Virus record (IMG/VR): IMGVR_UViG_3300022200_000053
Location: 1-56,480 of that record
Length of the DNA: 56,480 nt
Reading direction: 5' to 3' (one strand)
From: a virus
Lineage: Duplodnaviria; Caudoviricetes
Positions within the stretch are counted from its first letter, which is position 1. Each line of letters begins with the position of its first letter. The translations under genes were made by a program, and so were the position numbers. The notes beneath the pieces were generated by a model. That model made no database searches, was not told where the DNA came from, and saw nothing but the letters and a program-made list of their open reading frames with translations. Positions 15,501 through 46,919 of the stretch are shown here, piece after piece.

Positions 15501-15871
15501 CGAGAAGGTGTTACGTCAACCTGTGGAGACGAAGAAGCCCTTGGAGTACGGCCCGCAAACTCATATACGAAGTTGGGATCGACACCACTCAGGTCAACCG
15601 TGGCTCCAGTTTTGGTAGCACCAGGGCGAACGATGTCTGCTGCACGTTGCCTTGCGTTGCGAAGATCAAAAACTTCAGGATTTGCCCTTGCAATACGCTT
15701 GCCTGCTACGACAGCACCAGCAGTTGCACCAGCGGCCAGGGCAATTTTGCCAATGGTGTCGAGTAAGTTGTTTTGACGGGGTGCAGCTTCCGATTCACGG
15801 CGTTTTTTATCTTCTTCCGAAAGATATGCACCCATTAGGGCCGTATTCATGGCATTGGTATTTGAATACAT
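12515..15871 (-). CDS. Large low-complexity protein (probable internal virion protein)
   Basis: 1118-aa uninterrupted ORF and first gene of the minus-strand arm. Confidence 0.7.
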   Translation of the reverse strand: MYSNTNAMNTALMGAYLSEEDKKRRESEAAPRQNNLLDTIGKIALAAGATAGAVVAGKRIARANPEVFDLRNARQRAADIVRPGATKTGATVDLSGVDPNFVYEFAGRTPRASSSPQVDVTPSRPAPTTQTARQAQAEEVVRQARAERPQGIVLADLPQPKTYFDPWTRRETITDPFGTPTVPPGPNIKEMSFVLGDLPEPTEAELAQVLGKQTERTYPLTPLTRKEVIASVAAKPESELPRVYRPESGVDVELITDPNTGEIFRRGKSPDSFSQQYLKQAGYSEADTLVDQQVSSNLNQVDQFVNAVNSAEDQQTGRVKLAFQRNEDENLAAIELAEDRADARLATLAQASPESAGAIEVDAAINTVASQRPDGMPVDQVEGLTVIDLRNKQAINLPSGAAPRMERIVGLFQESDDLTNRAQEYLRRQQLAQEVDTDFDYSAENRRQAAQVQDRIQRAQELKDRAEQIIAEARGEVQPQTSQLSPEDFAKDFNRRYREEVNPELKLVDNARQRQELRGAQAGVEGEDVVSLLLGDVPEVETTMRGKALRGGKLNRAGDISYMDESGLEYASADTGVKARQGQGTQYKEHVLLTNEVKPIIGRASDEELTSMVLEGQDSPFRQALKERVAQKFTRYQDPRQLNLPVDLESGSTSLDNYLTNLASQTLVARALKNPEPTALQTAALNRARASVAASEEIRQQARIQSQQRPTIAPGPAQDLARSMETLRRGMIVEPSEPLPVLPSVQQMRAGFVTDIDPDELKKMTKAERIQLLGPVLSASDVYTGAAAEAAGPVIFTGKSKANTVLATPPITGSVDTPTGRYLTQDNPDVLGTVYKVAGTRANREISRQVEANAQDFLADAIAGGLQQKAISTPEPYRTPGIAATSQLEFYPEAKPQATSISPMSLKGTLGVTGPEASQRTGYAQYQPGRSVPGPRSPFIGEMSGGTVVVVPPTAASTGTRRDIGAPTSSIDLTRRGEKARYFSLYPEERFITGQEPPPIGPLTQSSGLSRIGGMTKQAVRGAGEGVYVTQLTPQGQRIAYPRMDKPVTVPGYTKGSTVTNIPRYGINPGAEDWRQDLMRSEYRRGGPIRTSAADPRQLGITGRGLDLLLEYLNIPRS

Positions 15872-15980
15872 GCGCCTTAAAGCTTTATTGCTTAAGATTT
15901 TTACCTTTACACATTCTATTGTGCGTGAATCCAGGGGATATGGGGTTTATTATTGAGAAATACATGGATTTCTACCAGGA

Positions 15981-16193
15981 ATGGAAGCTGGTAAGCGCCA
16001 AAAACGGGTCGAAGCCCTAGAGGCAATTAAAAACGAAGCATTAAGACGTGCGCGAGAAGGAGAAGACTCCCTTGAGGTGCGTGATTTTGTAACTTCGGCC
16101 AAAAAAGAACTAGCTTATGAGCTGCCTGACGAGGAAGCATTTAAAAAAGCAATGAATGCAACGCTCGCATACAAGGCAAAGAAGGAAAAATAA
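15981..16193 (+). CDS. Hypothetical protein
   Basis: 70-aa charged ORF followed by an intrinsic terminator. Confidence 0.6.
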   Translation: MEAGKRQKRVEALEAIKNEALRRAREGEDSLEVRDFVTSAKKELAYELPDEEAFKKAMNATLAYKAKKEK

Positions 16194-16217
16194 TAAATTT
16201 TTAAAACATTGATTAAC

Positions 16218-16244
16218 GCCGGGGAGAAAGACCCCGGCTTTTTT
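16218..16244 (+). terminator. Rho-independent terminator
   Basis: GCCGGGG-agaaaga-CCCCGGC hairpin followed by TTTTTT. Confidence 0.85.
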
Positions 16245-16637
16245 GTTTAAATTTTTGGGTAAAACGTCATTTTTACCTACAAAAGTGCGTTTTTACCTTC
16301 AAAGTTAGGCCCTTTATAGCTCCAAATAGGGGATAAAATTACCTGACGCATCTCACACCCGCCCACCGATTGGGAATGCGTAGGGAAAAAAAGAAATGCG
16401 GAGTGTTACCCATGATACACCCCCAAATCTACAGAGAAGAACGTCAGGAAATGCTAACAATTCCCCTCTGATTCGCGCGGAACCCCCAAATCGCGCTCCC
16501 TGACTGGAGTTTGCAGAAGCAGACTGTTGTCTAAAGGGAGCTTGGGTTAATACCCGACGAAGAAGATCGGGATTTAGAGCAGTAACTGTCGTCGAGCTGG
16601 ACGTTAAACGTAGCATTGTTCACTCGCATTCAACACC

Positions 16638-16883
16638 ATGAACAAGACCAACAAGATGGCGATGGAAGCCAAAGCGAAAGCTGAGGCAATGGGTTGGGAA
16701 GCTCGGGTTCAACTGGACCAGAGCGACGTTCTCGACATGGCAACGGTGGTTGCTTGGAAGAAGGGAGCAACAGATGAGAGCCCAGCTCGCTACATCCGAT
16801 TCACGGAAGAACGGGAATCGGTTAGAGGTTGGGTTCTAGTTAAGCACGCAATGATCAAGCTGGATTATTGCAACTGTTACTGA
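16638..16883 (+). CDS. First early-region hypothetical protein
   Basis: 81 aa; its stop codon lies in the first family-A repeat. Confidence 0.6.
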   Translation: MNKTNKMAMEAKAKAEAMGWEARVQLDQSDVLDMATVVAWKKGATDESPARYIRFTEERESVRGWVLVKHAMIKLDYCNCY

Positions 16884-16950
16884 TAGCTGGTGCGAAGGGA
16901 GGTTCGATTCCTCCCATCAGACTTGCCCTCAGCGGAGATGGGCACCGCAC
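16880..16950 (+). repeat. Family A element 1 (tRNA-elbow mimic plus TGCCC/GGGCA domain)
   Basis: CTGAT/ATCAG outer stem and GGGAGG-TTCGATT-CCTCCC T-arm, then TTGCCCTCAGCGGAGATGGGCACCGCAC; identical to copy 4. Confidence 0.9.
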
Positions 16951-16964
16951 AACAGGAGATTCCA

Positions 16965-17159
16965 ATGAAGGTTTCTTTTCCCGTTGCATTGACTGCATTC
17001 ATTGCAGTTCCTCTTGCGATCCAAGTTGTTTCTGCAGTGGCTGTATTACCAGCTCTGGAGAAGGCGACGACAGAACAGTGCAAGACCCATGATTGGCCTG
17101 CTCACCAGCATGCTGCTCACATGGATTTCTGTACTAGCAACGGCTACCCAACCAACTGA
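16965..17159 (+). CDS. Small membrane-anchored protein, paralog of 17693-17872
   Basis: AGGAG RBS; TM helix followed by L(E/D)KATxEQCxTHDWP...CxxNGY. Confidence 0.75.
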   Translation: MKVSFPVALTAFIAVPLAIQVVSAVAVLPALEKATTEQCKTHDWPAHQHAAHMDFCTSNGYPTN

Positions 17160-17232
17160 GTACAAGGCGTGATGCCGGGGGATCGAATCCCCTACTCAGT
17201 TATTGCCCAGTACGCAGAGATGGGCACTGCAC
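17154..17232 (+). repeat. Family A element 2
   Basis: AACTGAGTA/TACTCAGTT stem, GGC-GTGAT-GCC hairpin, GGGGG-ATCGAAT-CCCCT arm, then TGCCC...GCAG.AGAT.GGGCA.CTGC. Confidence 0.9.
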
Positions 17233-17247
17233 AATCAGGAGATCCCT

Positions 17248-17388
17248 GTGGGTTACAAGCATCTTTCGGCGGTAGAGCGCCGCATCGTTTTCCAGACCTG
17301 GAAAGCATGGCAGCTTTATCCGGTGCCAAAGCACTGGGTACAGCAGGCCATCCAGGAAGCCCTGATTAATTTCAGGTCTCCCAACTGA
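17248..17388 (+). CDS. Small hypothetical protein
   Basis: GTG start after an AGGAG RBS, between two family-A elements. Confidence 0.6.
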   Translation: MGYKHLSAVERRIVFQTWKAWQLYPVPKHWVQQAIQEALINFRSPN

Positions 17389-17459
17389 TCCGTAAAAGCG
17401 GTCATCCCCGGTGCAATGCCGGGGTCAGTTATTGCCCCCAGCGGAGATGGGCACCGCAC
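17383..17459 (+). repeat. Family A element 3
   Basis: AACTGA/TCAGTT stem, CCG-TAAAAG-CGG hairpin, CCCCGG-TGCAATG-CCGGGG arm, then the conserved 3' domain. Confidence 0.9.
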
Positions 17460-17472
17460 CACGGAGCAACTC

Positions 17473-17610
17473 ATGGCTATCCGTAAGAACCTTGCCAAGA
17501 CCCTGATCAACGCCGCCAAGGCGGTGGAGAAGGATCAGACAAAAGAACGCATCCAGAAATGGGTGCATGACTCAAGGTTCAAGCTTGCAAAGGTTATTGA
17601 ACCTAACTGA
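17473..17610 (+). CDS. Small basic hypothetical protein
   Basis: MAIRKNLAKTLINAAKAV...; GGAG RBS. Confidence 0.65.
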   Translation: MAIRKNLAKTLINAAKAVEKDQTKERIQKWVHDSRFKLAKVIEPN

Positions 17611-17677
17611 TAGCTGGTGCGAAGGGAGGTTCGATTCCTCCCATCAGACTTGCCCTCAGCGGAGATGGGCACCGCAC
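17607..17677 (+). repeat. Family A element 4
   Basis: Exact copy of element 1. Confidence 0.9.
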
Positions 17678-17692
17678 AACCAGGAGTTTCCT

Positions 17693-17872
17693 GTGACCAA
17701 GCTTATTGCTTCCTACGTAATCATTGCCGCATTCATCATGGGCATTGGTGGACAGATTATTGTTCACCAACTGGACAAGGCTACGGCTGAGCAATGCCGT
17801 ACACACGACTGGCCGAAGGAGGCCGACCAGATCCACAGGGACTGGTGCATTGGTAACGGCTACCAGATCTAG
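17693..17872 (+). CDS. Small membrane-anchored protein, paralog of 16965-17159
   Basis: GTG start with AGGAG RBS; LDKATAEQCRTHDWP...CIGNGY. Confidence 0.75.
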   Translation: MTKLIASYVIIAAFIMGIGGQIIVHQLDKATAEQCRTHDWPKEADQIHRDWCIGNGYQI

Positions 17873-17946
17873 CTGATCCGTTAAAGCGGGTTGGGAGGTG
17901 CGAACCCTCCCACAGTTATTGCCCTTAGCGGAGATGGGCACCGCAC
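17870..17946 (+). repeat. Family A element 5
   Basis: CCG-TTAAAG-CGG hairpin, TGGGAGG-TGCGAAC-CCTCCCA arm, conserved 3' domain. Confidence 0.9.
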
Positions 17947-17960
17947 ACTAACTCAGCTCA

Positions 17961-18149
17961 ATGGACATCCTCTACTTCACCCTGACCACCGAAGATGCTG
18001 TCTACAAGTTCCAGGTCAACAAGGCAGAGAACTTGGTGCGTGTCACCAAGATGATTCTCAAGAACAAGTGCTTTGGAGAGTGGCATCGTTCCACGTCAAT
18101 GACTGTAGACGCAGGGCGAAAGCTCGTGCGTCAACTACAGGCCAGGTGA
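17961..18149 (+). CDS. Small hypothetical protein
   Basis: 62 aa between family-A elements. Confidence 0.65.
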   Translation: MDILYFTLTTEDAVYKFQVNKAENLVRVTKMILKNKCFGEWHRSTSMTVDAGRKLVRQLQAR

Positions 18150-18217
18150 GTATAGCTCCCAAGCCAGGTGCAATGCCTGGCTCTGGTCATTGCCCCCAGC
18201 GGAGATGGGCACCGCAC
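18140..18217 (+). repeat. Family A element 6
   Basis: GGCCAG/CTGGTC stem, GAG-TATAG-CTC hairpin, AGCCAGG-TGCAATG-CCTGGCT arm, conserved 3' domain. Confidence 0.85.
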
Positions 18218-18233
18218 ACTCGGAACTAACAAC

Positions 18234-18425
18234 GTGTTCTTCGTTGTTCTCAACAACCAGCAGCACAGTGCACACTTCTGCCAAGAAGATGCGTACATCG
18301 AAGCTGCTCAACTGGACCACATGCTCAACTCTCCAGAGTTGAACGATGGAGTCCAGAACTTCAACGAGGTATCCGTTCTCTCCTTCGTGGAGATGATGGA
18401 GTCTCCGGTTGAGATGGTCATCTGA
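18234..18425 (+). CDS. Small acidic hypothetical protein
   Basis: GTG start, between family-A elements. Confidence 0.55.
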   Translation: MFFVVLNNQQHSAHFCQEDAYIEAAQLDHMLNSPELNDGVQNFNEVSVLSFVEMMESPVEMVI

Positions 18426-18492
18426 CCAGGCGTGATGCCGGGGGATCGAATCCCCCACTCAACCATTGCCCCCACGGGAGATGGGCACCCAC
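18407..18492 (+). repeat. Family A element 7 (near-cloverleaf)
   Basis: GGTTGAG/CTCAACC 7-bp stem enclosing TGGTC..GACCA, GGC-GTGAT-GCC and GGGGG-ATCGAAT-CCCCC hairpins; 3' domain carries the GGG/CCC variant. Confidence 0.85.
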
Positions 18493-18506
18493 ACATGGAG
18501 AGATCC

Positions 18507-18809
18507 ATGCACGTCTACCAGCTTACCGAGAATCCTCGTGATTCGTTTTACGGTGGCGATGATTTGTCCACTGTCATCGGTTATTACGCTTCTAAGCGTA
18601 AAGCAGATGCCAAGGCTGTAGAGCTATCAGCTCGACAAGCTAAGGAAGAAGAGCTGGATTGGATTACCAATCCTTGCGAATGCGGTGATCGCCAGTGTGA
18701 TCGCCGTGACAAGTTCTTCACATCTTGGCATGTGGACAGAATTGATCTAACTGAGTTGTCGATGCGGCGACTCATGGAGATCGAGTTGGCTGATGCCGAC
18801 GAAGACTGA
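18507..18809 (+). CDS. Hypothetical protein with a CxC-x4-C cluster
   Basis: GGAG RBS; MHVYQLTENPRDS...PCECGDRQC. Confidence 0.65.
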   Translation: MHVYQLTENPRDSFYGGDDLSTVIGYYASKRKADAKAVELSARQAKEEELDWITNPCECGDRQCDRRDKFFTSWHVDRIDLTELSMRRLMEIELADADED

Positions 18810-18879
18810 TCCGTCAAAGCGGGTGACCAGGTGCAAACCCTGGTCCAGTTATTGCCCCCAGCGGAGATGGGCACCGCAC
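18804..18879 (+). repeat. Family A element 8
   Basis: CCG-TCAAAG-CGG hairpin, GACCAGG-TGCAAAC-CCTGGTC arm, conserved 3' domain. Confidence 0.9.
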
Positions 18880-18893
18880 ACCAGGAGTTTCCT

Positions 18894-19088
18894 GTGGACC
18901 AAGCTCTTGCTTACACTCTTGAAGTGCTGATCTCCCTTCGTGAGGCAGCAATTGAAGATTGCTGTCAGAGAATGGTTAGCCATGAAACCTGCATGGCCGA
19001 GATGGTTGATCGTTTCATTAAGGCTAATGATCCGAATGGTGAGATTGCCAGGAAGGTCTATGCCTCAATGTTTAGGTCAGACCACTAA
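18894..19088 (+). CDS. Small hypothetical protein
   Basis: GTG start after AGGAG. Confidence 0.6.
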   Translation: MDQALAYTLEVLISLREAAIEDCCQRMVSHETCMAEMVDRFIKANDPNGEIARKVYASMFRSDH

Positions 19089-19089
19089 T

Positions 19090-19159
19090 TAGCTGATCCG
19101 TTAAAGCGGGAGGCAGGGTGCGATCCCCTGCCCAGTTATTGCCACCCACCGAGGGTGGC
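19090..19159 (+). repeat. Family A element 9 (divergent 3' hairpin)
   Basis: CCG-TTAAAG-CGG hairpin and GGCAGGG-TGCGATC-CCCTGCC arm, then GCCACCC-ACCGA-GGGTGGC. Confidence 0.85.
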
Positions 19160-19171
19160 TTACACAAGATC

Positions 19172-19432
19172 ATGCAACCTCTAATCTATCAACCCAAGCA
19201 CGAACATAAGTATCGTGTCGCATGGTATGGCAGTAGCACCCAGCTTCACTTCCAGAAGTACTGCTTAGTTGCCACGCCTGATTTTGATGGAGATTACGAG
19301 TGGATCGACATCGATGTCCGTAATCTCATGGGTGGCCTTCCGAATGGTGTTAAGGAATTGCACCAGGAGATGGAAGATTATTACAACTATGGCATAGTCC
19401 AGGAACAGGACTATGCTGCATCACTTGTCTAA
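19172..19432 (+). CDS. Hypothetical protein
   Basis: MQPLIYQPKHEHKYRVAW..., downstream of element A9. Confidence 0.65.
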   Translation: MQPLIYQPKHEHKYRVAWYGSSTQLHFQKYCLVATPDFDGDYEWIDIDVRNLMGGLPNGVKELHQEMEDYYNYGIVQEQDYAASLV

Positions 19433-19457
19433 CAATCTAGCCTTTTATTTCAGTTAA

Positions 19458-19673
19458 TTGATCATGCAACGTAACGAATTTGTTGACGCTTGTGTTGCTA
19501 TTGTCATTGGCACTGGTAGTGGCTTACTCCTATCTGTTGGAGCACAGAAGTCGCTCAACAACCACTACAAAGCAACGTGCAATGACAGACCAGGACACAA
19601 CCTTGTCTACGCCCACGGACTCTTAGGTGATACTTACTATTGCGTTAAGAGTAAGTACGTAAGTATCAACTGA
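19458..19673 (+). CDS. Small membrane protein
   Basis: N-terminal hydrophobic helix. Confidence 0.55.
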   Translation: MIMQRNEFVDACVAIVIGTGSGLLLSVGAQKSLNNHYKATCNDRPGHNLVYAHGLLGDTYYCVKSKYVSIN

Positions 19674-19674
19674 T

Positions 19675-19720
19675 CTCTGCTCTAAGGGGCTTCGGCCCTT
19701 TACTGCAGGGTTCTCCTGCA
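19675..19720 (+). repeat. Family D element 1 (UUCG hairpin plus second hairpin)
   Basis: AAGGGGC-TTCG-GCCCTTT followed by TGCAGG-GTTCT-CCTGCA. Confidence 0.6.
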
Positions 19721-19748
19721 TCCACTCAACTCAACCCAAGCTAGTTCC

Positions 19749-19988
19749 ATGAACTACCAAGCTGTTGAACATCTCCTCACCCAGGATGCTCGTCTCCTGG
19801 CACGTCGAGATTCTCCTGTCATTGACCAAGAGCTGGAAGAACAGCGTCAAGCTGCACTCGATCTCTTCTTCCAGTGGCAGGATGGTATGTGTCAGTTCCA
19901 AGAGCTGATGCCATTCGTTGCTATCATCCAACGCAAGGTGGATCTCAACAGAGATCTGCTGCGTTGGGAACGTAAGCATGAAGACTGA
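19749..19988 (+). CDS. Hypothetical protein
   Basis: 79 aa with a C/A-rich leader. Confidence 0.65.
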   Translation: MNYQAVEHLLTQDARLLARRDSPVIDQELEEQRQAALDLFFQWQDGMCQFQELMPFVAIIQRKVDLNRDLLRWERKHED

Positions 19989-19989
19989 A

Positions 19990-20038
19990 TCCTGATCGGA
20001 GGGGCTTCGGCCCTTCCCACCAGGACTCAATATCCTGG
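19990..20038 (+). repeat. Family D element 2
   Basis: GGAGGGGC-TTCG-GCCCTTCC followed by CCAGGA-CTCAATA-TCCTGG. Confidence 0.6.
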
Positions 20039-20063
20039 GCACTAAACCCATTGTTACTACGGA

Positions 20064-20330
20064 ATGGCAATTTCAATTGACTACCACGACATCACAGCAG
20101 CTTGTGAAAAGTTCAGGCTTAAGCCCACAGATTATTACCTTGAATTCAACGATCAAGTTGTTTATATGTACTGGGTTGCATGCCCAGTTGATATATATGA
20201 CTACATGAAAGGTGATATGACGTGCCTTGATTTTCAACGTAAAGGCAAGTGGCTCAGCTTTGAAGAATGCTCTGATCAATATGAAGAGCGTCCATTCACA
20301 AACATGCGTTACATCCTGGAGACTATCTGA
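20064..20330 (+). CDS. Hypothetical protein
   Basis: 88 aa. Confidence 0.6.
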   Translation: MAISIDYHDITAACEKFRLKPTDYYLEFNDQVVYMYWVACPVDIYDYMKGDMTCLDFQRKGKWLSFEECSDQYEERPFTNMRYILETI

Positions 20331-20521
20331 TGAAGACGATCTACCGCCTTGGGAAAGGCTACGTCCACATGGATTCTTATCCTGAGACACATGAGACTCG
20401 CCCTTCTATTGCAGTAGTCCTCCTCTCCCTCCTCCTTGCCGCCATCACCGGCGGGGCATTGGTTGGTGTGGATATCACCAAGCCACAACCTGAGGTGTCG
20501 CATCACATCACTGGCTACTAA
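20330..20521 (+). CDS. Small membrane protein
   Basis: Central TM helix IAVVLLSLLLAAITGGALVGV. Confidence 0.6.
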   Translation: MKTIYRLGKGYVHMDSYPETHETRPSIAVVLLSLLLAAITGGALVGVDITKPQPEVSHHITGY

Positions 20522-20531
20522 CCACTGAACT

Positions 20532-20571
20532 ACCTGGGCATCACACGATCACGTGTGTGTAAGTCCCAGGT
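20532..20571 (+). repeat. Family B element 1
   Basis: ACCTGGG-CAT-[CACACG ATCA CGTGTG]-TGTAAGT-CCCAGGT. Confidence 0.9.
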
Positions 20572-20594
20572 CCAACCCTCATCCTCTCGATACC

Positions 20595-20942
20595 ATGACA
20601 ACTCAACTCAAAGAACACATCCAAGTTCTGGAGGCTCGAATCCAGTGCCTGATCGACGCAATGCTCGCCAAGTACGAGAAGGAGTACCAAGTGGGTGGCA
20701 TTGAATTTGAAATTGTGAAAGGCACCAAGTACTACAAGCTGATTGAGAAGAGCACCAGGGCATCAGGAATGGGTGGTACATCTGTCCATGCATTTATTGA
20801 TCGTCAGTCCGGATCTGTCATGAAACCAGCAAGTTGGAAATCACCTGCAAAGCATGTGAGGTACAATCTGATGGATGATGTTTCATATGCTGAATGTCTT
20901 GAGCGTTGTGATTGGGCAGGTGTTTACCTCTACCTTAAATAA
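20595..20942 (+). CDS. Conserved phage hypothetical protein (SVHAF..KPASWKxPAKHVRYNL family)
   Basis: Motif recognised from cyanophage hypothetical proteins. Confidence 0.7.
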   Translation: MTTQLKEHIQVLEARIQCLIDAMLAKYEKEYQVGGIEFEIVKGTKYYKLIEKSTRASGMGGTSVHAFIDRQSGSVMKPASWKSPAKHVRYNLMDDVSYAECLERCDWAGVYLYLK

Positions 20943-20944
20943 CC

Positions 20945-21391
20945 ATGGGATTTAGAACACCTGAGCAAAGGCGGCGTTATTTGCAGAACCGTTATCAACA
21001 ACGGATTCAACAATGCCGCGCTTTATTAGGAGGAAAGTGTGTCAAGTGCGGATGCACTGAAAAGCTGGAGTTTGACCACATCGATCCACTCACAAAGACG
21101 GCATCTATTTCAAGATTGCTTGCCAATGGCAATAAAGCTGACCTTGAGAAAGAGCTACAGAAGTGCCAGTTGTTATGCAATTCATGCCATGTAGCTAAAA
21201 CAGCTGAGAAGAAAGAGAACGTAACCAATGTTAAGTCTTGGTTAATAACCAAGAAAGATTCAAGTACTGTTGTCTGCACCAACTTGTCTCAATGGTGCAA
21301 AGACAATGGCTATAAAGAGCAAGTCTTACGAGACATTGCTAGGAACAGAAGATCATTGAAGTGCGACATTGCTTTTGTGGTCAAATTGTAA
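20945..21391 (+). CDS. HNH endonuclease
   Basis: CVKCG...LEFDHIDP...KCQLLCNSCH. Confidence 0.85.
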   Translation: MGFRTPEQRRRYLQNRYQQRIQQCRALLGGKCVKCGCTEKLEFDHIDPLTKTASISRLLANGNKADLEKELQKCQLLCNSCHVAKTAEKKENVTNVKSWLITKKDSSTVVCTNLSQWCKDNGYKEQVLRDIARNRRSLKCDIAFVVKL

Positions 21392-27650: not shown

Positions 27651-27890
27651 ATGCTCTGTTTATCTATGCCTGATTACACAGACGATCAGCTACTTGCCAT
27701 GGCTATGGCAAATCTTGGAGAGTACATCCATGAAAACTCACCTCGTTATGTATTAATTGAAGATCCTCGCAACGAGGATGACTACGATAGCTGGACTTAC
27801 GGAATGGAAGTCCTGCCGCAAGATCACACTTGGCAGTCAACATCAATTGATGTTGATGTAAGTCCAAGTGATGCAGATATGGCGGAATAG
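27651..27890 (+). CDS. Acidic hypothetical protein
   Basis: Likely start is MPDYTDDQ; the 3' end overlaps element B7 and the tRNA. Confidence 0.45.
   Translation: MLCLSMPDYTDDQLLAMAMANLGEYIHENSPRYVLIEDPRNEDDYDSWTYGMEVLPQDHTWQSTSIDVDVSPSDADMAE
27827..27870 (+). repeat. Family B element 7 (directly 5' of tRNA-Leu)
   Basis: CACTTGG-CAG-[TCAACATC AATT GATGTTGA]-TGTAAGT-CCAAGTG. Confidence 0.8.
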
Positions 27891-27958
27891 GTAGACGCAA
27901 CGGACTTAAAATCCGTAGGCCACTGGCCGTGAGAGTTCGAGTCTCTCTATCTGCACCA
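27873..27958 (+). tRNA. trnL: tRNA-Leu(TAA)
   Basis: GCAGATA/TATCTGC acceptor stem, GGTAGACGC D-arm, ACGGA-CTTAAAA-TCCGT anticodon arm, long variable arm, GTTCGAG T-loop and encoded CCA. Confidence 0.95.
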
Positions 27959-46696: not shown

Positions 46697-46769
46697 GTAT
46701 AGTTTTTATCAGACGTAAATATAATTTATCAGTATTTCCAATAAACGTCATTTATTGAGATTCTCGATA

Positions 46770-46847
46770 GCACCTGGGTAGGATTCGAACCTACATCGTC
46801 CTGCAATCGGCAGTAACCGTCTTATCCAATTAGCGTCGGACCAGGTG
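46770..46847 (-). tRNA. Degenerate tRNA / tRNA-like RNA (anticodon position reads GAT)
   Basis: CACCTGG/CCAGGTG acceptor stem and GTAGG-TTCGAAT-CCTAC T-arm are canonical. The D stem is weak and the anticodon loop (CCGATTG) is non-canonical. Confidence 0.55.
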
Positions 46848-46848
46848 A

Positions 46849-46919
46849 TCGGGATGGAAGGTACTGCCCCTTCTCCTTTGCGTCCCAAACGCAATGTGAT
46901 ACTTTTCTACTACATCCCG
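46849..46919 (-). tRNA. trnP: tRNA-Pro(TGG) with atypical D and T loops
   Basis: CGGGATG/CATCCCG acceptor stem with discriminator A, TTGCG-TTTGGGA-CGCAA anticodon arm, GAAGG-GGCAGTA-CCTTC T-arm. Confidence 0.8.

What the first reader, a model, noticed from the sequence alone, without database searches (positions are those of the whole stretch)
16880..19159. Family A: nine anticodon-less tRNA-elbow mimics between consecutive early genes
Seen: each copy has an outer stem, a small D-like element and a T-arm. T-arm stems differ between copies yet always pair: GGGAGG/CCTCCC, CCCCGG/CCGGGG, AGCCAGG/CCTGGCT, GACCAGG/CCTGGTC, GGCAGGG/CCCTGCC. The loop is always a 7-nt T-loop-like sequence (TTCGATT, ATCGAAT, TGCAATG, TGCGAAC, TGCAAAC, TGCGATC). 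D-like loop type co-varies with T-loop type: AGCTGGT with TTCGA, TNAAAG/TATAG with TGCRA, GTGAT with ATCGA. This suggests a D/T-loop tertiary contact. Copy 7 has a 7-bp acceptor-like stem and ends ...CCA. Established: RNase P and RNase Z recognise the acceptor/T-arm elbow, as in mascRNA and the tmRNA tRNA-like domain. Inference: host tRNA-processing enzymes cut the mRNA here. Released mini-tRNAs could also decoy tRNA-binding defence proteins.
Basis: partly seen in the sequence, partly recalled or inferred. Interest (0 to 1): 0.88.

Follow-up and report, generated by a model that had tools for sequence, protein, structure and literature searches.

The report
tRNA-shaped punctuation marks in cyanophage mRNA
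Between ten small genes of a freshwater cyanophage lie nine copies of a short RNA fold that imitates a tRNA without its anticodon arm, and related phages carry real tRNAs at the matching spot, so these folds probably tell host tRNA-trimming enzymes where to cut the phage message.

Summary
All nine gaps between ten small + strand ORFs (16880-19159) carry a 41-58 nt multi-branch fold. It has an acceptor-like P1, a mini D-like hairpin P2 and a T-arm-like hairpin P3 with a 7-nt loop. Eight copies are three-way junctions. Copy 7 is a four-way junction. Across about 150 related viral contigs all three helices covary. A P2-loop base covaries with T-loop base 2 (A with G, G with U), as G18:U55 does in tRNA. 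P1+P3 is usually 12 bp. Each fold is followed, 13-14 nt after the T-loop, by a second conserved module, a covarying pseudoknot or a hairpin starting UUGCC. The same composite occurs in marine T7-like cyanophages (S-SBP1, S-TIP37, P-SSP7), in early-gene regions and before the capsid gene. There, other phages carry genuine tRNA-Gly or tRNA-Leu genes at the same spot and in the same register. Most likely these are tRNA surrogates that recruit host tRNA 3'-end processing (RNase Z; RNase P less likely, because the upstream stop codon lies inside P1). No RNA data were available, so cleavage is inferred. No Rfam family matched and no paper was found. I rate it a new variant of a known kind, of high interest.

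The parts
16880..16920 (+). Copy 1, tRNA-like three-way junction. P1 is CUGAU/AUCAG, the mini hairpin has a UGGU loop, and the T-like arm is 6 bp with loop UUCGAUU. The UGA stop of ORF 16638-16883 lies in P1.
   Evidence: 18.2 bits; MFE, z -2.15
16921..16950 (+). Copy 1, module 2a pseudoknot: stem UGCCC/GGGCA plus GCGG/CCGC. It is followed by an SD and ATG 16965.
17154..17201 (+). Copy 2, tRNA-like junction. P1 is long (7-8 bp), P2 is GGC-GUGAU-GCC, and the T-like arm is 5 bp with loop AUCGAAU. The UGA stop of the upstream ORF lies in P1.
   Evidence: 17.9 bits; z -4.60
17202..17232 (+). Copy 2, module 2a with the compensated second pairing GCAG/CUGC.
17383..17430 (+). Copy 3, tRNA-like junction. 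P2 loop is UAAAAG and the T-like loop is UGCAAUG.
   Evidence: (56.3 bits)
17431..17459 (+). Copy 3, module 2a.
17607..17647 (+). Copy 4, identical in sequence to copy 1. It precedes a paralogue of the gene that follows copy 1.
17648..17677 (+). Copy 4, module 2a.
17870..17918 (+). Copy 5, tRNA-like junction. P2 loop is UUAAAG and the T-like loop is UGCGAAC. The upstream ORF's stop is the UAG at 17870-17872, the first three bases of the extended 6-bp P1 (UAGCUG/CAGUUA).
   Evidence: (67.3 bits)
17919..17946 (+). Copy 5, module 2a.
18140..18188 (+). Copy 6, tRNA-like junction. P1 includes CCAG/CUGG, P2 is GAG-UAUAG-CUC, and the T-like loop is UGCAAUG.
   Evidence: (37.3 bits)
18189..18217 (+). 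Copy 6, module 2a.
18407..18464 (+). Copy 7, a four-way-junction variant. The outer stem is 7 bp (GGUUGAG/CUCAACC). There is an extra hairpin holding the upstream UGA stop, P2 is GGC-GUGAU-GCC, and the T-like arm has loop AUCGAAU.
   Evidence: 9.8 bits, E 0.57; z -3.77
18466..18493 (+). Copy 7, module 2a with the shifted second pairing GGG/CCC.
18804..18850 (+). Copy 8, tRNA-like junction, the family's consensus form. P2 loop is UCAAAG and the T-like loop is UGCAAAC.
   Evidence: (69.4 bits)
18851..18879 (+). Copy 8, module 2a.
19090..19138 (+). Copy 9, tRNA-like junction. The T-like loop is UGCGAUC. The upstream stop is UAA at 19086-19088.
   Evidence: (65.0 bits)
19139..19159 (+). Copy 9, module 2b: a plain hairpin (7-bp stem GCCACCC/GGGUGGC plus loop) in place of the pseudoknot. 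The same type occurs in S-EIVl with a compensated stem.
16638..19432 (+). An array of ten small ORFs (45-100 aa) separated by the nine composite elements. None matches Pfam above its cut-off, and none matches PHROGs.

Best explanation
Each intergenic gap holds a two-part cis-acting RNA signal in the polycistronic phage mRNA.

Part 1 is a minimal tRNA mimic. An acceptor-like stem P1 stacks on a T-arm-like hairpin P3, for about 12 bp in all. A small D-like hairpin P2 touches the T-like loop and forms a tRNA 'elbow'. There is no anticodon arm. One unpaired base follows the stack, mostly A, like a discriminator. Then comes UU.

Part 2 starts right there, at UUGCC, and is a stable pseudoknot or hairpin just upstream of the next gene's ribosome-binding site.

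Proposed mechanism (inferred, not shown): the host's tRNA 3'-end endonuclease RNase Z reads the elbow and the 12-bp stack as it does on a CCA-less pre-tRNA, and cuts after the discriminator-like base. The upstream cistron is left with its stop codon and a tRNA-like 3' cap. The downstream cistron is left with a 5' end buried in a stable structure. One early transcript thus becomes a set of separately stable mRNAs. This would do the job that RNase III sites do in coliphage T7 early mRNA (recalled knowledge). RNase P may also act but is less likely to be the productive cut.

Shown here: the structure, its tRNA-like tertiary covariation, the fixed register, and its interchange with real tRNAs.

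Inferred: the enzyme, the cut and the stabilising effect.
For: 1. Structure. On a 59-sequence alignment (7 window copies, 52 from related contigs) the three helices are 94.1% paired against 71.1% in shuffles. There are 214 double-change cells against 60.7, with 0 of 500 shuffles as high. Slid controls give 28-56% paired. Fifteen of 17 pairs carry compensatory changes. The commonest pair at one P2 position is U-G (42 of 59), so the fold belongs to the transcribed strand only.

2. T-arm signature, in a sample not selected on the loop. Of 107 unique 60-mers that begin with the 5' half, 93 have a hairpin with a 7-nt loop. The loop reads U,G,C,R,A,W,Y and is closed by GG/CC in 90 of 93.

3. Tertiary contact. 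When T-loop base 2 is G, the penultimate P2-loop base is A in 150 of 177. When it is U, the base is G in 16 of 20. Matched loop backgrounds exist: UUAAAG/UUAAGG, UAAAAG/UAAAGG, UACAAG/UACAGG, UACCCAAG/UACCCAGG. The same switch recurs in the separately sampled podovirus set, GUUAAG+UGCAAGU against GUUAGG+UUCAAGU.

4. Ruler. P1+P3 is 12 in 135, 11 in 65 and 13 in 40 of 247 unique elements. The two lengths trade off: 7+5, 6+6 and 5+7. Position 13 after the loop is A in 205 of 274, position 14 is U in 238 and position 15 is U in 266. The pair +1:12 forms in 198 of 274, but -1:13 forms in only 69. The UU[G/A]CC anchor lies 13 nt after the loop in 240 and 14 nt in 28 of the 278 unique hits that have it, out of 355 unique hits.

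5. Interchange with real tRNAs. In T7-like cyanophages the mimic sits before a conserved leader that starts UUGGC, ahead of the capsid gene. This holds for P-SSP7, S-SBP1, P-SSP3, S-TIP37 and S-RIP1. NATL1A-7 has an annotated, ARAGORN-confirmed tRNA-Gly(UCC) there instead. Among 105 IMG/VR instances, 6 have ARAGORN tRNAs at that spot, 4 Gly(UCC) and 2 Leu(AAG); two of the four Gly were called only at ARAGORN's relaxed setting (-ps90; 4 of the 6 at default). Another 29 have the strict mimic. The offset from loop to anchor is 13 for the real tRNAs (4 unique plus NATL1A-7), and 13 (15 unique) or 14 (9 unique) for the mimics. None of these tRNAs encodes CCA.

6. Position. In S-SBP1 three copies lie among gp01-gp03 at the left end. 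The nine small left-end genes there are the early class by RNA-seq (PMC7885011, section 3.3 passages).

7. Arrangement. Elements lie in 148 loci, never on both strands of one locus, with a median spacing of 285 nt.

8. Enzymes. Cyanobacteria have RNase Z, P, E and J (PMC10989914, Table 1 passages).
Against: There are no RNA data, so no cut, product or CCA addition has been seen (one search listed no RNA holder).

Neither ARAGORN nor Rfam's tRNA model recognises the elements. The only related Rfam signal is a 17-nt tmRNA T-arm match at E 7.5.

Most copies have G where every tRNA has U55. Its effect on RNase Z or P is unknown.

At the podovirus capsid site the commonest occupant is a hairpin with a conserved 15-nt loop that does not look like tRNA (56 of 105). 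A tRNA shape is therefore not obligatory there, and a generic structural role is possible.

The upstream stop codon lies inside P1. This argues against RNase P and hence against release of a free mini-tRNA.

Single-sequence folding z-scores are modest. The 98-nt composite of copy 8 is not better than shuffles (z -0.87).

The related loci were fished with patterns taken from this window and are related by descent, so the counts are not independent events.

The stimulation of RNase Z by uridines after the discriminator is recalled from the literature. I did not check it here.
Confidence: 0.55

Rival explanations
1. The folds are uncut stabilisers or insulators, like REP hairpins in E. coli operons. 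They would block 3'-to-5' exonucleases and shield neighbouring cistrons. The tRNA shape would then be just one of several compact folds that serve this purpose.
For: Module 2 comes in interchangeable forms: a pseudoknot, or hairpins of several kinds. At the podovirus capsid site, 56 of 105 instances carry a hairpin that is not tRNA-like in place of the mimic. No cleavage has been seen.
Against: A generic roadblock would not need a T-loop signature, a D/T-like tertiary covariation, a 12-bp ruler or a fixed 13-14 nt register. Real tRNAs, which are necessarily excised, sit at the same register.
Confidence: 0.15
2. Host RNase E, which cyanophages are known to exploit, cuts the short A/U linker between the two structured modules. 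The flanking folds would only present the site.
For: The bases between the modules are A, U, U and are highly conserved. E. coli RNase E cuts 1-3 nt after tRNA 3' ends (abstract of PMC2190699, seen in the listing). Papers on P-SSP7 and host RNase E exist (listing, abstracts only).
Against: Only 1-2 nt are unpaired between P1 and the module 2 stem. That is little room for an enzyme that needs single-stranded RNA. This rival does not explain the elbow covariation.
Confidence: 0.1
3. RNase P and RNase Z both cut and release 45-50 nt mini-tRNAs. These act in trans as decoys or sponges for tRNA-binding host factors, such as defence nucleases, CCA-modifying toxins or modification enzymes.
For: There are nine copies in one early transcript. 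The elbow is well conserved.
Against: The upstream stop codon lies within P1 in most copies. The stop's first base falls at -7 to 0 of the P1/P2 border in 193 of 332, with a peak of 105 at -2. A 5' cut would therefore make non-stop mRNAs. There is no anticodon loop to decoy anticodon nucleases. No partner protein is evident in the window.
Confidence: 0.07
4. The repeats are mainly DNA-level recombination modules that shuffle small early-gene cassettes, like the stem-loop cassettes of T4-type phages (recalled). RNA structure would be secondary.
For: Copies 1 and 4 are identical, and each precedes a paralogous membrane-protein gene (36% identity, E 1e-16). The elements flank ORFan genes, and gene content differs between related contigs.
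Against: Compensatory changes keep pairing rather than sequence. G-U pairs make the fold strand-specific. All copies run in gene orientation, with no locus of 148 mixed. The stop and start codons keep a fixed relation to the fold.
Confidence: 0.05
5. The fold acts in translation. A tRNA mimic placed on the stop codon would affect termination, ribosome recycling or re-initiation at the next gene.
For: The stop codon lies inside P1 or P2 in most copies. The next start lies about 45-60 nt downstream.
Against: The same element works with stops placed upstream of it (copy 9). It also occurs in a 5' leader before the first early gene of S-SBP1. No pairing links it to the next ribosome-binding site.
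Confidence: 0.05

Closest known systems
tRNA punctuation of mitochondrial polycistronic transcripts, and plant mitochondrial 't-elements' (PMC1920247; abstract seen in the listing)
   Same: tRNAs or tRNA-like folds between coding regions define mRNA 5' and 3' ends through RNase P and RNase Z. Real tRNAs and mimics are interchangeable at such sites.
   Different: This case is in dsDNA phages of cyanobacteria. The mimic lacks an anticodon arm altogether. It is always coupled to a second structured module. Its 5' strand overlaps the upstream stop codon.
mascRNA / MALAT1 and MEN-beta tRNA-like 3'-end processing (recalled knowledge)
   Same: A tRNA-like fold inside a long transcript is recognised by tRNA-processing enzymes and sets the end of the neighbouring RNA.
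   Different: That case is eukaryotic and nuclear, uses a full cloverleaf, and RNase P makes the productive cut. Here a 3'-side cut fits better.
RNase III sites between the early genes of coliphage T7 (recalled knowledge)
   Same: Repeated structured signals lie between small early genes at the genome's left end and are cut by a host enzyme into separately stable mRNAs. T7-like cyanophages carry the present element in that region.
   Different: The fold differs (a tRNA mimic, not a long duplex), and so would the host enzyme.
tRNA-like domain of tmRNA
   Same: It has an acceptor stem, a T-arm and a reduced D-loop, with no anticodon arm. Copy 1's T-arm gives a weak local match to the cyanobacterial tmRNA model (10.7 bits, E 7.5).
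   Different: There is no tag reading frame, no long helix 2 and no pseudoknot ring. The element is embedded in mRNA, is repeated, and shows no evidence of charging.
3' tRNA-like structures of plant RNA viruses (PMC5723415 and PMC8127992, listings only)
   Same: A viral RNA mimics tRNA to use host tRNA enzymes and to protect an RNA 3' end.
   Different: Those sit at genome 3' ends, are usually aminoacylated, and have pseudoknotted acceptor stems. These are internal, minimal and belong to DNA phages.

Membership tests
tRNA (Rfam RF00005 / ARAGORN cloverleaf) | A four-arm cloverleaf with an anticodon arm, detectable by tRNA models | tested here: not met
   ARAGORN finds only tRNA-Leu at 27873-27958. 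Rfam at gathering score gives tRNA only at 27873 and at 46849(-). No tRNA match at E up to 10 in 16400-19700.
tRNA-like 'elbow' (acceptor/T-arm stack plus D/T loop contact) | A T-arm with a 7-nt loop (U at position 1, C at 3, purine at 4, A at 5), closed by G-C as G53-C61 is in tRNA | tested here: met
   In 93 hairpins that were not selected on the loop, the loop reads U,G,C,R,A,W,Y, and GG/CC closes 90 of 93. Position 2 is G in this class, where tRNA has U.
tRNA-like 'elbow' (acceptor/T-arm stack plus D/T loop contact) | A tertiary pair between the D-loop and T-loop (G18:U55, G19:C56) | tested here: met
   This is met at the level of sequence covariation only. A pairs with G in 150 of 177, and G pairs with U in 16 of 20. 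The switch recurs in podovirus copies. The last P2-loop G and the T-loop C do not vary. No 3D test was possible.
tRNA-like 'elbow' (acceptor/T-arm stack plus D/T loop contact) | A 12-bp coaxial acceptor+T stack followed by an unpaired discriminator | tested here: met
   P1+P3 is 12 in 135, 11 in 65 and 13 in 40 of 247. Position 13 is A in 205 of 274, and -1:13 pairs in only 69 of 274.
Substrate of RNase Z / RNase P | Cleavage by the enzyme at the end of the acceptor-like stem | not testable with these tools
   There is indirect support only. Real CCA-less tRNAs sit at the same place and register in related phages.
tmRNA tRNA-like domain | Linkage to a tag-peptide reading frame and a pseudoknot-rich body | tested here: not met
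   No tmRNA was found by ARAGORN. Rfam gives only a 17-nt T-arm match far below the gathering score (10.7 against 70 bits).
Any Rfam 15 family (including hammerhead, twister, pistol, riboswitches) | A match to a curated covariance model | tested here: not met
   No family matched the elements in the window, in four related loci, or in P-SSP7 and S-SBP1. Only the neighbouring Glutamine-II riboswitch matched.
H-type pseudoknot (module 2a) | Two helices in the order S1a-S2a-S1b-S2b, both supported by covariation | tested here: met
   In 88 sequences, 98.1% of cells are paired against 90.0% in shuffles. There are 79 double-change cells against 18.7. Slid controls give 24-42%. Two of 5 S1 pairs and 3 of 4 S2 pairs have compensatory changes. 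The zero-length link between S1b and S2b is unusual. Whether both helices form at once was not tested.

The most novel reading that the evidence does not exclude
Cyanophages of at least two unrelated lineages (S-EIV1-like phages and T7-like Autographiviridae) use a dedicated, roughly 45-nt tRNA mimic without an anticodon arm as a portable 'cut here' signal. This would give bacteria-infecting viruses a tRNA-punctuation system like that of mitochondria. Host RNase Z (and perhaps RNase P and the CCA-adding enzyme) would convert early and late polycistronic transcripts into monocistronic mRNAs capped by a tRNA-like 3' end and a pseudoknotted 5' end. The mimic would also show that an A:G pair can replace the universal G18:U55 elbow contact.
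Probability: 0.45. Interest if true: 0.88.

Novelty: new variant of a known kind. Interest (0 to 1): 0.8.

Why it matters
If host tRNA enzymes cut here, this would be the first dedicated tRNA-mimic punctuation system described for phage or bacterial mRNA. It would be a counterpart of T7's RNase III sites built on a different host enzyme.

It would explain long-unannotated conserved intergenic sequence in model cyanophages. In P-SSP7 that sequence lies between the glutamine riboswitch ORF and the capsid gene. In S-SBP1 it lies in the early region.

It is directly testable, because cultured phage-host pairs and published RNA-seq already exist.

The fold is also a very small natural tRNA-elbow mimic with an unusual tertiary pair, which is of structural interest.

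A compact host-processed spacer could be useful for multi-gene expression in cyanobacteria.

Tried and rejected
Known RNA families. Rfam was searched at gathering score and at E up to 10. Nothing matched but tRNAs elsewhere, noise, and the Glutamine-II riboswitch next to the podovirus copies. I considered hammerhead and other small ribozymes because of the CUGA and the three-way junction. I rejected them: no Rfam match, and the CUG is paired.

Promoter or terminator. The simple scan found 0 sigma-70-like sites in 15700-21000 (5.2 expected) and no terminator at the elements. There is no U-tract after the hairpins.

Expression data. The look-up of sequencing runs listed no RNA holder. All 23 holders are DNA metagenome contigs. 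Read laying was therefore not used, and this blank is no evidence either way.

Host genomes. One exact-pattern scan of genome contigs found a single 4.7-kb MAG contig.

Protein clues. Twenty larger ORFs were scanned in Pfam. They include terminase, DNA polymerase A, ThyX, SSB and primase. No RNA polymerase, nuclease or tRNA enzyme was seen. The ten small ORFs gave no PHROGs match and one sub-threshold Pfam match.

Literature. Seven searches and passages of five papers found no description of this element. PMC10690425 predicted 10,006 structured RNA candidates in IMG/VR. Its main-text passages do not mention this motif. Its supplementary tables, which I could not open, may list it.

The whole 98-nt composite does not fold better than shuffles. 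Folding energy alone is therefore not used as evidence for module 2.

Full report
WHAT THE WINDOW IS. The window is a complete IMG/VR virus record of 56,480 nt, estimated 71% complete. Its only similar cultured phage is the freshwater Synechococcus phage S-EIVl, with 12% of a 4-kb query covered at 75% identity. Minus-strand genes, including a terminase, end at 15871. Plus-strand genes start at 15981. A run of small ORFs is followed by ThyX, DNA polymerase A, SSB and a primase. No RNA polymerase was seen among the 20 larger ORFs scanned. A strong terminator-like hairpin lies at 16218-16238, followed by a leader of about 400 nt. After that come ten ORFs of 45-100 aa (16638-19432). None has a PHROGs match and none has a Pfam match above the cut-off. 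That these are 'early genes' is an inference from position and size.

THE OBSERVATION. A descriptor for the three-way junction finds 8 hits in the window, all on the + strand between 16880 and 19138, and none on the - strand or elsewhere. Shuffled windows give a mean of 1.89 and a maximum of 7 on both strands. ViennaRNA gives the multi-branch fold as the MFE structure for all nine, with z from -2.15 to -4.60. Copy 7 lacks the usual 5' partner. Instead it pairs a stretch inside the upstream ORF with its 3' strand. This gives a 7-bp outer stem and a four-way junction. Its 'CCA' is the end of that stem plus the unpaired A, not a tail.

A SECOND MODULE. Every copy is followed at once by a second conserved element. 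Seven of nine match a 16-mer of it, with 0.23 expected by chance. In eight copies it is a hairpin (UGCCC/GGGCA) whose loop (GCGG) pairs with the four bases right after the stem (CCGC). In copy 9, and in one S-EIVl copy, it is a plain 7-bp hairpin. Next come a spacer of a few bases, often a Shine-Dalgarno sequence, and the start codon.

RELATIVES. In these loci the descriptor finds 424 hits. Of these, 339 have the module 2 anchor, and 247 of those are unique. A covariance model, R1, was built from 59 sequences. It finds 200 and 114 matches at E up to 0.01 in the two halves of the locus set. In the window it finds the eight clean copies and weakly copy 7 (9.8 bits). Apart from one partial 13.8-bit match (E 0.022) on the - strand inside the array (17854-17883), nothing else scores better than 11 bits. 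Seven window copies were in the seed, so their match is by construction. Elements lie in 148 loci and are never on both strands of one locus. Median spacing is 285 nt, the size of one small gene. One exact-pattern scan of 185,579 prokaryotic species genomes found a single 4.7-kb MAG contig.

THE FOLD IS REAL AND IS RNA. On the 59-sequence alignment, 94.1% of cells are paired against 71.1% in shuffles. Double-change cells number 214 against 60.7, and 0 of 500 shuffles reach this. Sliding the partners drops pairing to 28-56%. Fifteen of 17 pairs show compensatory changes, spread over all three helices. One P2 position is most often U-G (42 of 59), and P1 has many G-U pairs. On the other strand these would be mismatches, so the structure belongs to the transcript. 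For module 2a (88 sequences), both pairings are supported. Pairing is 98.1% against 90.0%, double changes number 79 against 18.7, and slid controls give 24-42%. Two of 5 pairs in the first helix and 3 of 4 in the second are compensated. The two helices are joined without a linker, which is unusual for a pseudoknot. Whether they form at the same time was not tested.

HOW tRNA-LIKE IT IS. Five points bear on this.

(a) T-arm. Take 107 unique sequences chosen only by the 5' half of the fold. Of these, 93 have a hairpin with a 7-nt loop reading U,G,C,R,A,W,Y, and GG/CC closes 90 of the 93. This is the tRNA T-arm signature, except that position 2 is G. Other classes read UUCGAUU, UUCAAUN or AUCGAAU.

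(b) Elbow contact. The penultimate base of the P2 loop tracks T-loop base 2. It is A with G in 150 of 177, and G with U in 16 of 20. Four loop backgrounds differ only by this switch. The switch recurs in the separately sampled podovirus set. The last P2-loop base (G) and T-loop base 3 (C) do not vary. This mirrors G18:U55 and G19:C56 of tRNA.

(c) Ruler. P1+P3 is 12 in 135, 11 in 65 and 13 in 40 of 247 elements. Short T-like stems go with long P1, and long T-like stems with short P1.

(d) Discriminator. Position 13 after the loop is A in 205 of 274 and rarely pairs (69 of 274). Positions 14 and 15 are U in 238 and 266.

(e) Register. Module 2's UU[G/A]CC starts 13 nt after the loop in 240 and 14 nt in 28 of the 278 unique hits that have it. 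In the window it starts at 13 nt in six copies and at 14 nt in three.

Against membership in the tRNA family proper: there is no anticodon arm, no ARAGORN call and no Rfam tRNA match.

THE KEY COMPARISON. Two outlying loci led to marine T7-like cyanophages. There the same fold sits between a small ORF controlled by a Glutamine-II riboswitch and the major capsid gene. R1 scores are P-SSP7 35.2 bits (E 4e-10), P-SSP3 35.2, S-SBP1 50.5, S-TIP37 21.3 and S-RIP1 19.7. Again it is followed 13-15 nt after the loop by a conserved structured leader that starts UUGGC.

In cyanophage NATL1A-7, an annotated and ARAGORN-confirmed tRNA-Gly(UCC) occupies that place, directly before the same leader. I then took 105 IMG/VR instances of the leader that have enough upstream sequence. 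Six carry ARAGORN tRNAs ending within 4 nt of the leader, four Gly(UCC) and two Leu(AAG). Four of these six were called at ARAGORN's default setting and two Gly only at a relaxed one. Twenty-nine carry the strict mimic. Twelve are 'other', mostly mimics with a weak P1 or tRNA-like sequences. Fifty-six carry a different hairpin with a conserved 15-nt loop. Two have no anchor.

The offset from loop to anchor is 13 for the real tRNAs (4 unique plus NATL1A-7), and 13 or 14 for the mimics (15 and 9 unique). None of these tRNAs encodes CCA. A real tRNA must be excised by RNase P and by a 3' endonuclease, so the mRNA is necessarily cut at that register in those phages. The mimic at the same register is most simply read as a surrogate for that cut. 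The frequent non-tRNA hairpin shows that other solutions exist, and it tempers this inference.

EARLY REGIONS. A whole-record search finds further copies at the left ends of T7-like cyanophages. S-SBP1 has them at 586-634, 927-976 and 1324-1372, the last at 67.4 bits. S-TIP37 has them at 985-1034 and 1440-1487. The S-SBP1 copy between gp02 and gp03 has the same CCUGA stop-in-P1, the same fold, and a module 2 starting AUUGCC. In S-SBP1 the nine small left-end genes are the early class by RNA-seq (PMC7885011, passages of section 3.3). That paper does not discuss intergenic elements.

WHICH ENZYME. In the relatives, the first base of the upstream ORF's stop codon falls at -7 to 0 of the P1/P2 border in 193 of 332 cases, with peaks at -2 (105) and -5 (40). 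In the window it lies inside P1 in six copies (1, 2, 3, 4, 5 and 8, reading the extended P1 for copy 5), straddling the P1/P2 border in copy 6, in the extra hairpin in copy 7, and upstream of the fold only in copy 9. A cut at the 5' edge of P1, where RNase P would act, would therefore delete the stop codon. A cut after the discriminator-like A keeps it. The base before P1 is not enriched for U. The invariant UU after the A recalls the uridines that stimulate B. subtilis RNase Z on CCA-less precursors. I recall this from the literature and did not check it. Cyanobacteria have RNase Z, P, E and J (PMC10989914, Table 1 passages). After such a cut the downstream mRNA would begin 0-2 nt before a stable stem, and the upstream mRNA would end in a compact tRNA-like fold. 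That both ends would be protected is inference from general knowledge of bacterial mRNA decay.

WHAT IS KNOWN. No Rfam 15 family matches. Seven literature searches found no description. The 2010 survey that defined the neighbouring riboswitch does not mention a fold after the ORF (passages). A 2023 survey of IMG/VR predicted 10,006 candidates, and its closed supplements may list this one (passages). The concept is established elsewhere: tRNA or tRNA-like punctuation in mitochondria, plant t-elements and mascRNA. For phage or bacterial mRNA, a dedicated mimic without an anticodon arm, coupled to a 5' cap structure, appears to be new. I therefore rate it a new variant of a known kind.

LIMITS. 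No RNA evidence was available. The relatives were fished with patterns from this window and share descent, so counts are not independent events. The three-way descriptor fixes part of the T-loop, so loop conservation is quoted only from the unselected sample.

Noticed in passing
window 46768-46848 (- strand): A cloverleaf-like sequence lies directly downstream of the Rfam tRNA at 46849-46919(-). It has a 7-bp acceptor stem and a canonical T-arm, GUAGG-UUCGAAU-CCUAC. Its anticodon-like loop has only 5 nt. ARAGORN does not call it, and R1 hits only its T-arm (11.1 bits). It may be a degenerate tRNA or another tRNA-like element.
   Followed up: partly
window 27873-27958 (+): tRNA-Leu(UAA) sits between two + strand ORFs, about 22 nt before the next start codon. 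The same tRNA in the same kind of place occurs in 15 related loci. It is a real tRNA embedded in an operon of the same phage lineage, without module 2.
   Followed up: partly
window 16965-17159 and 17693-17872: Two paralogous small membrane-protein genes (36% identity, E 1e-16) are each preceded by an identical copy of the composite element (copies 1 and 4). S-EIVl has one homologue. This suggests cassette duplication through the repeats.
   Followed up: partly
L178 402-455 (P-SSP7), L030 346-400, L179 303-336: In T7-like cyanophages, a Glutamine-II riboswitch and its short conserved ORF lie directly upstream of the tRNA mimic, before the capsid gene. In P-SSP7 the ORF's UAA stop lies in the P2 loop of the mimic.
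   Followed up: partly
IMG/VR podovirus loci, e.g. L190, L217; also S-RIP2 (L180 about 640-670) and P-SSP10 (L183 about 368-400): The commonest occupant of the site before the capsid leader (56 of 105) is a hairpin with covarying stems and a nearly invariant 15-nt loop, CACCUCAGAGUCGGA. It has no Rfam match in the loci searched. Its function is unknown, and its loop CACC could pair with the GGUG of the downstream leader.
   Followed up: no
T7-like cyanophage capsid leaders (L030 569-625, L178 562-622, L182 401-460): A conserved three-part leader lies before the major capsid gene: a UUGGC...GCC bipartite hairpin, a GUCUAGAC palindrome, and a GGUGG-GAUAGA-CCAC hairpin followed by ACA. The last part resembles the second pairing of module 2a in the window.
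   Followed up: no
window 16218-16238 and 16240-16637: A strong terminator-like hairpin follows ORF 15981-16193 and is also conserved in S-EIVl. After it comes a non-coding leader of about 400 nt before the array, with no sigma-70-like promoter by the simple scan. The promoter of the array is unidentified.
   Followed up: no
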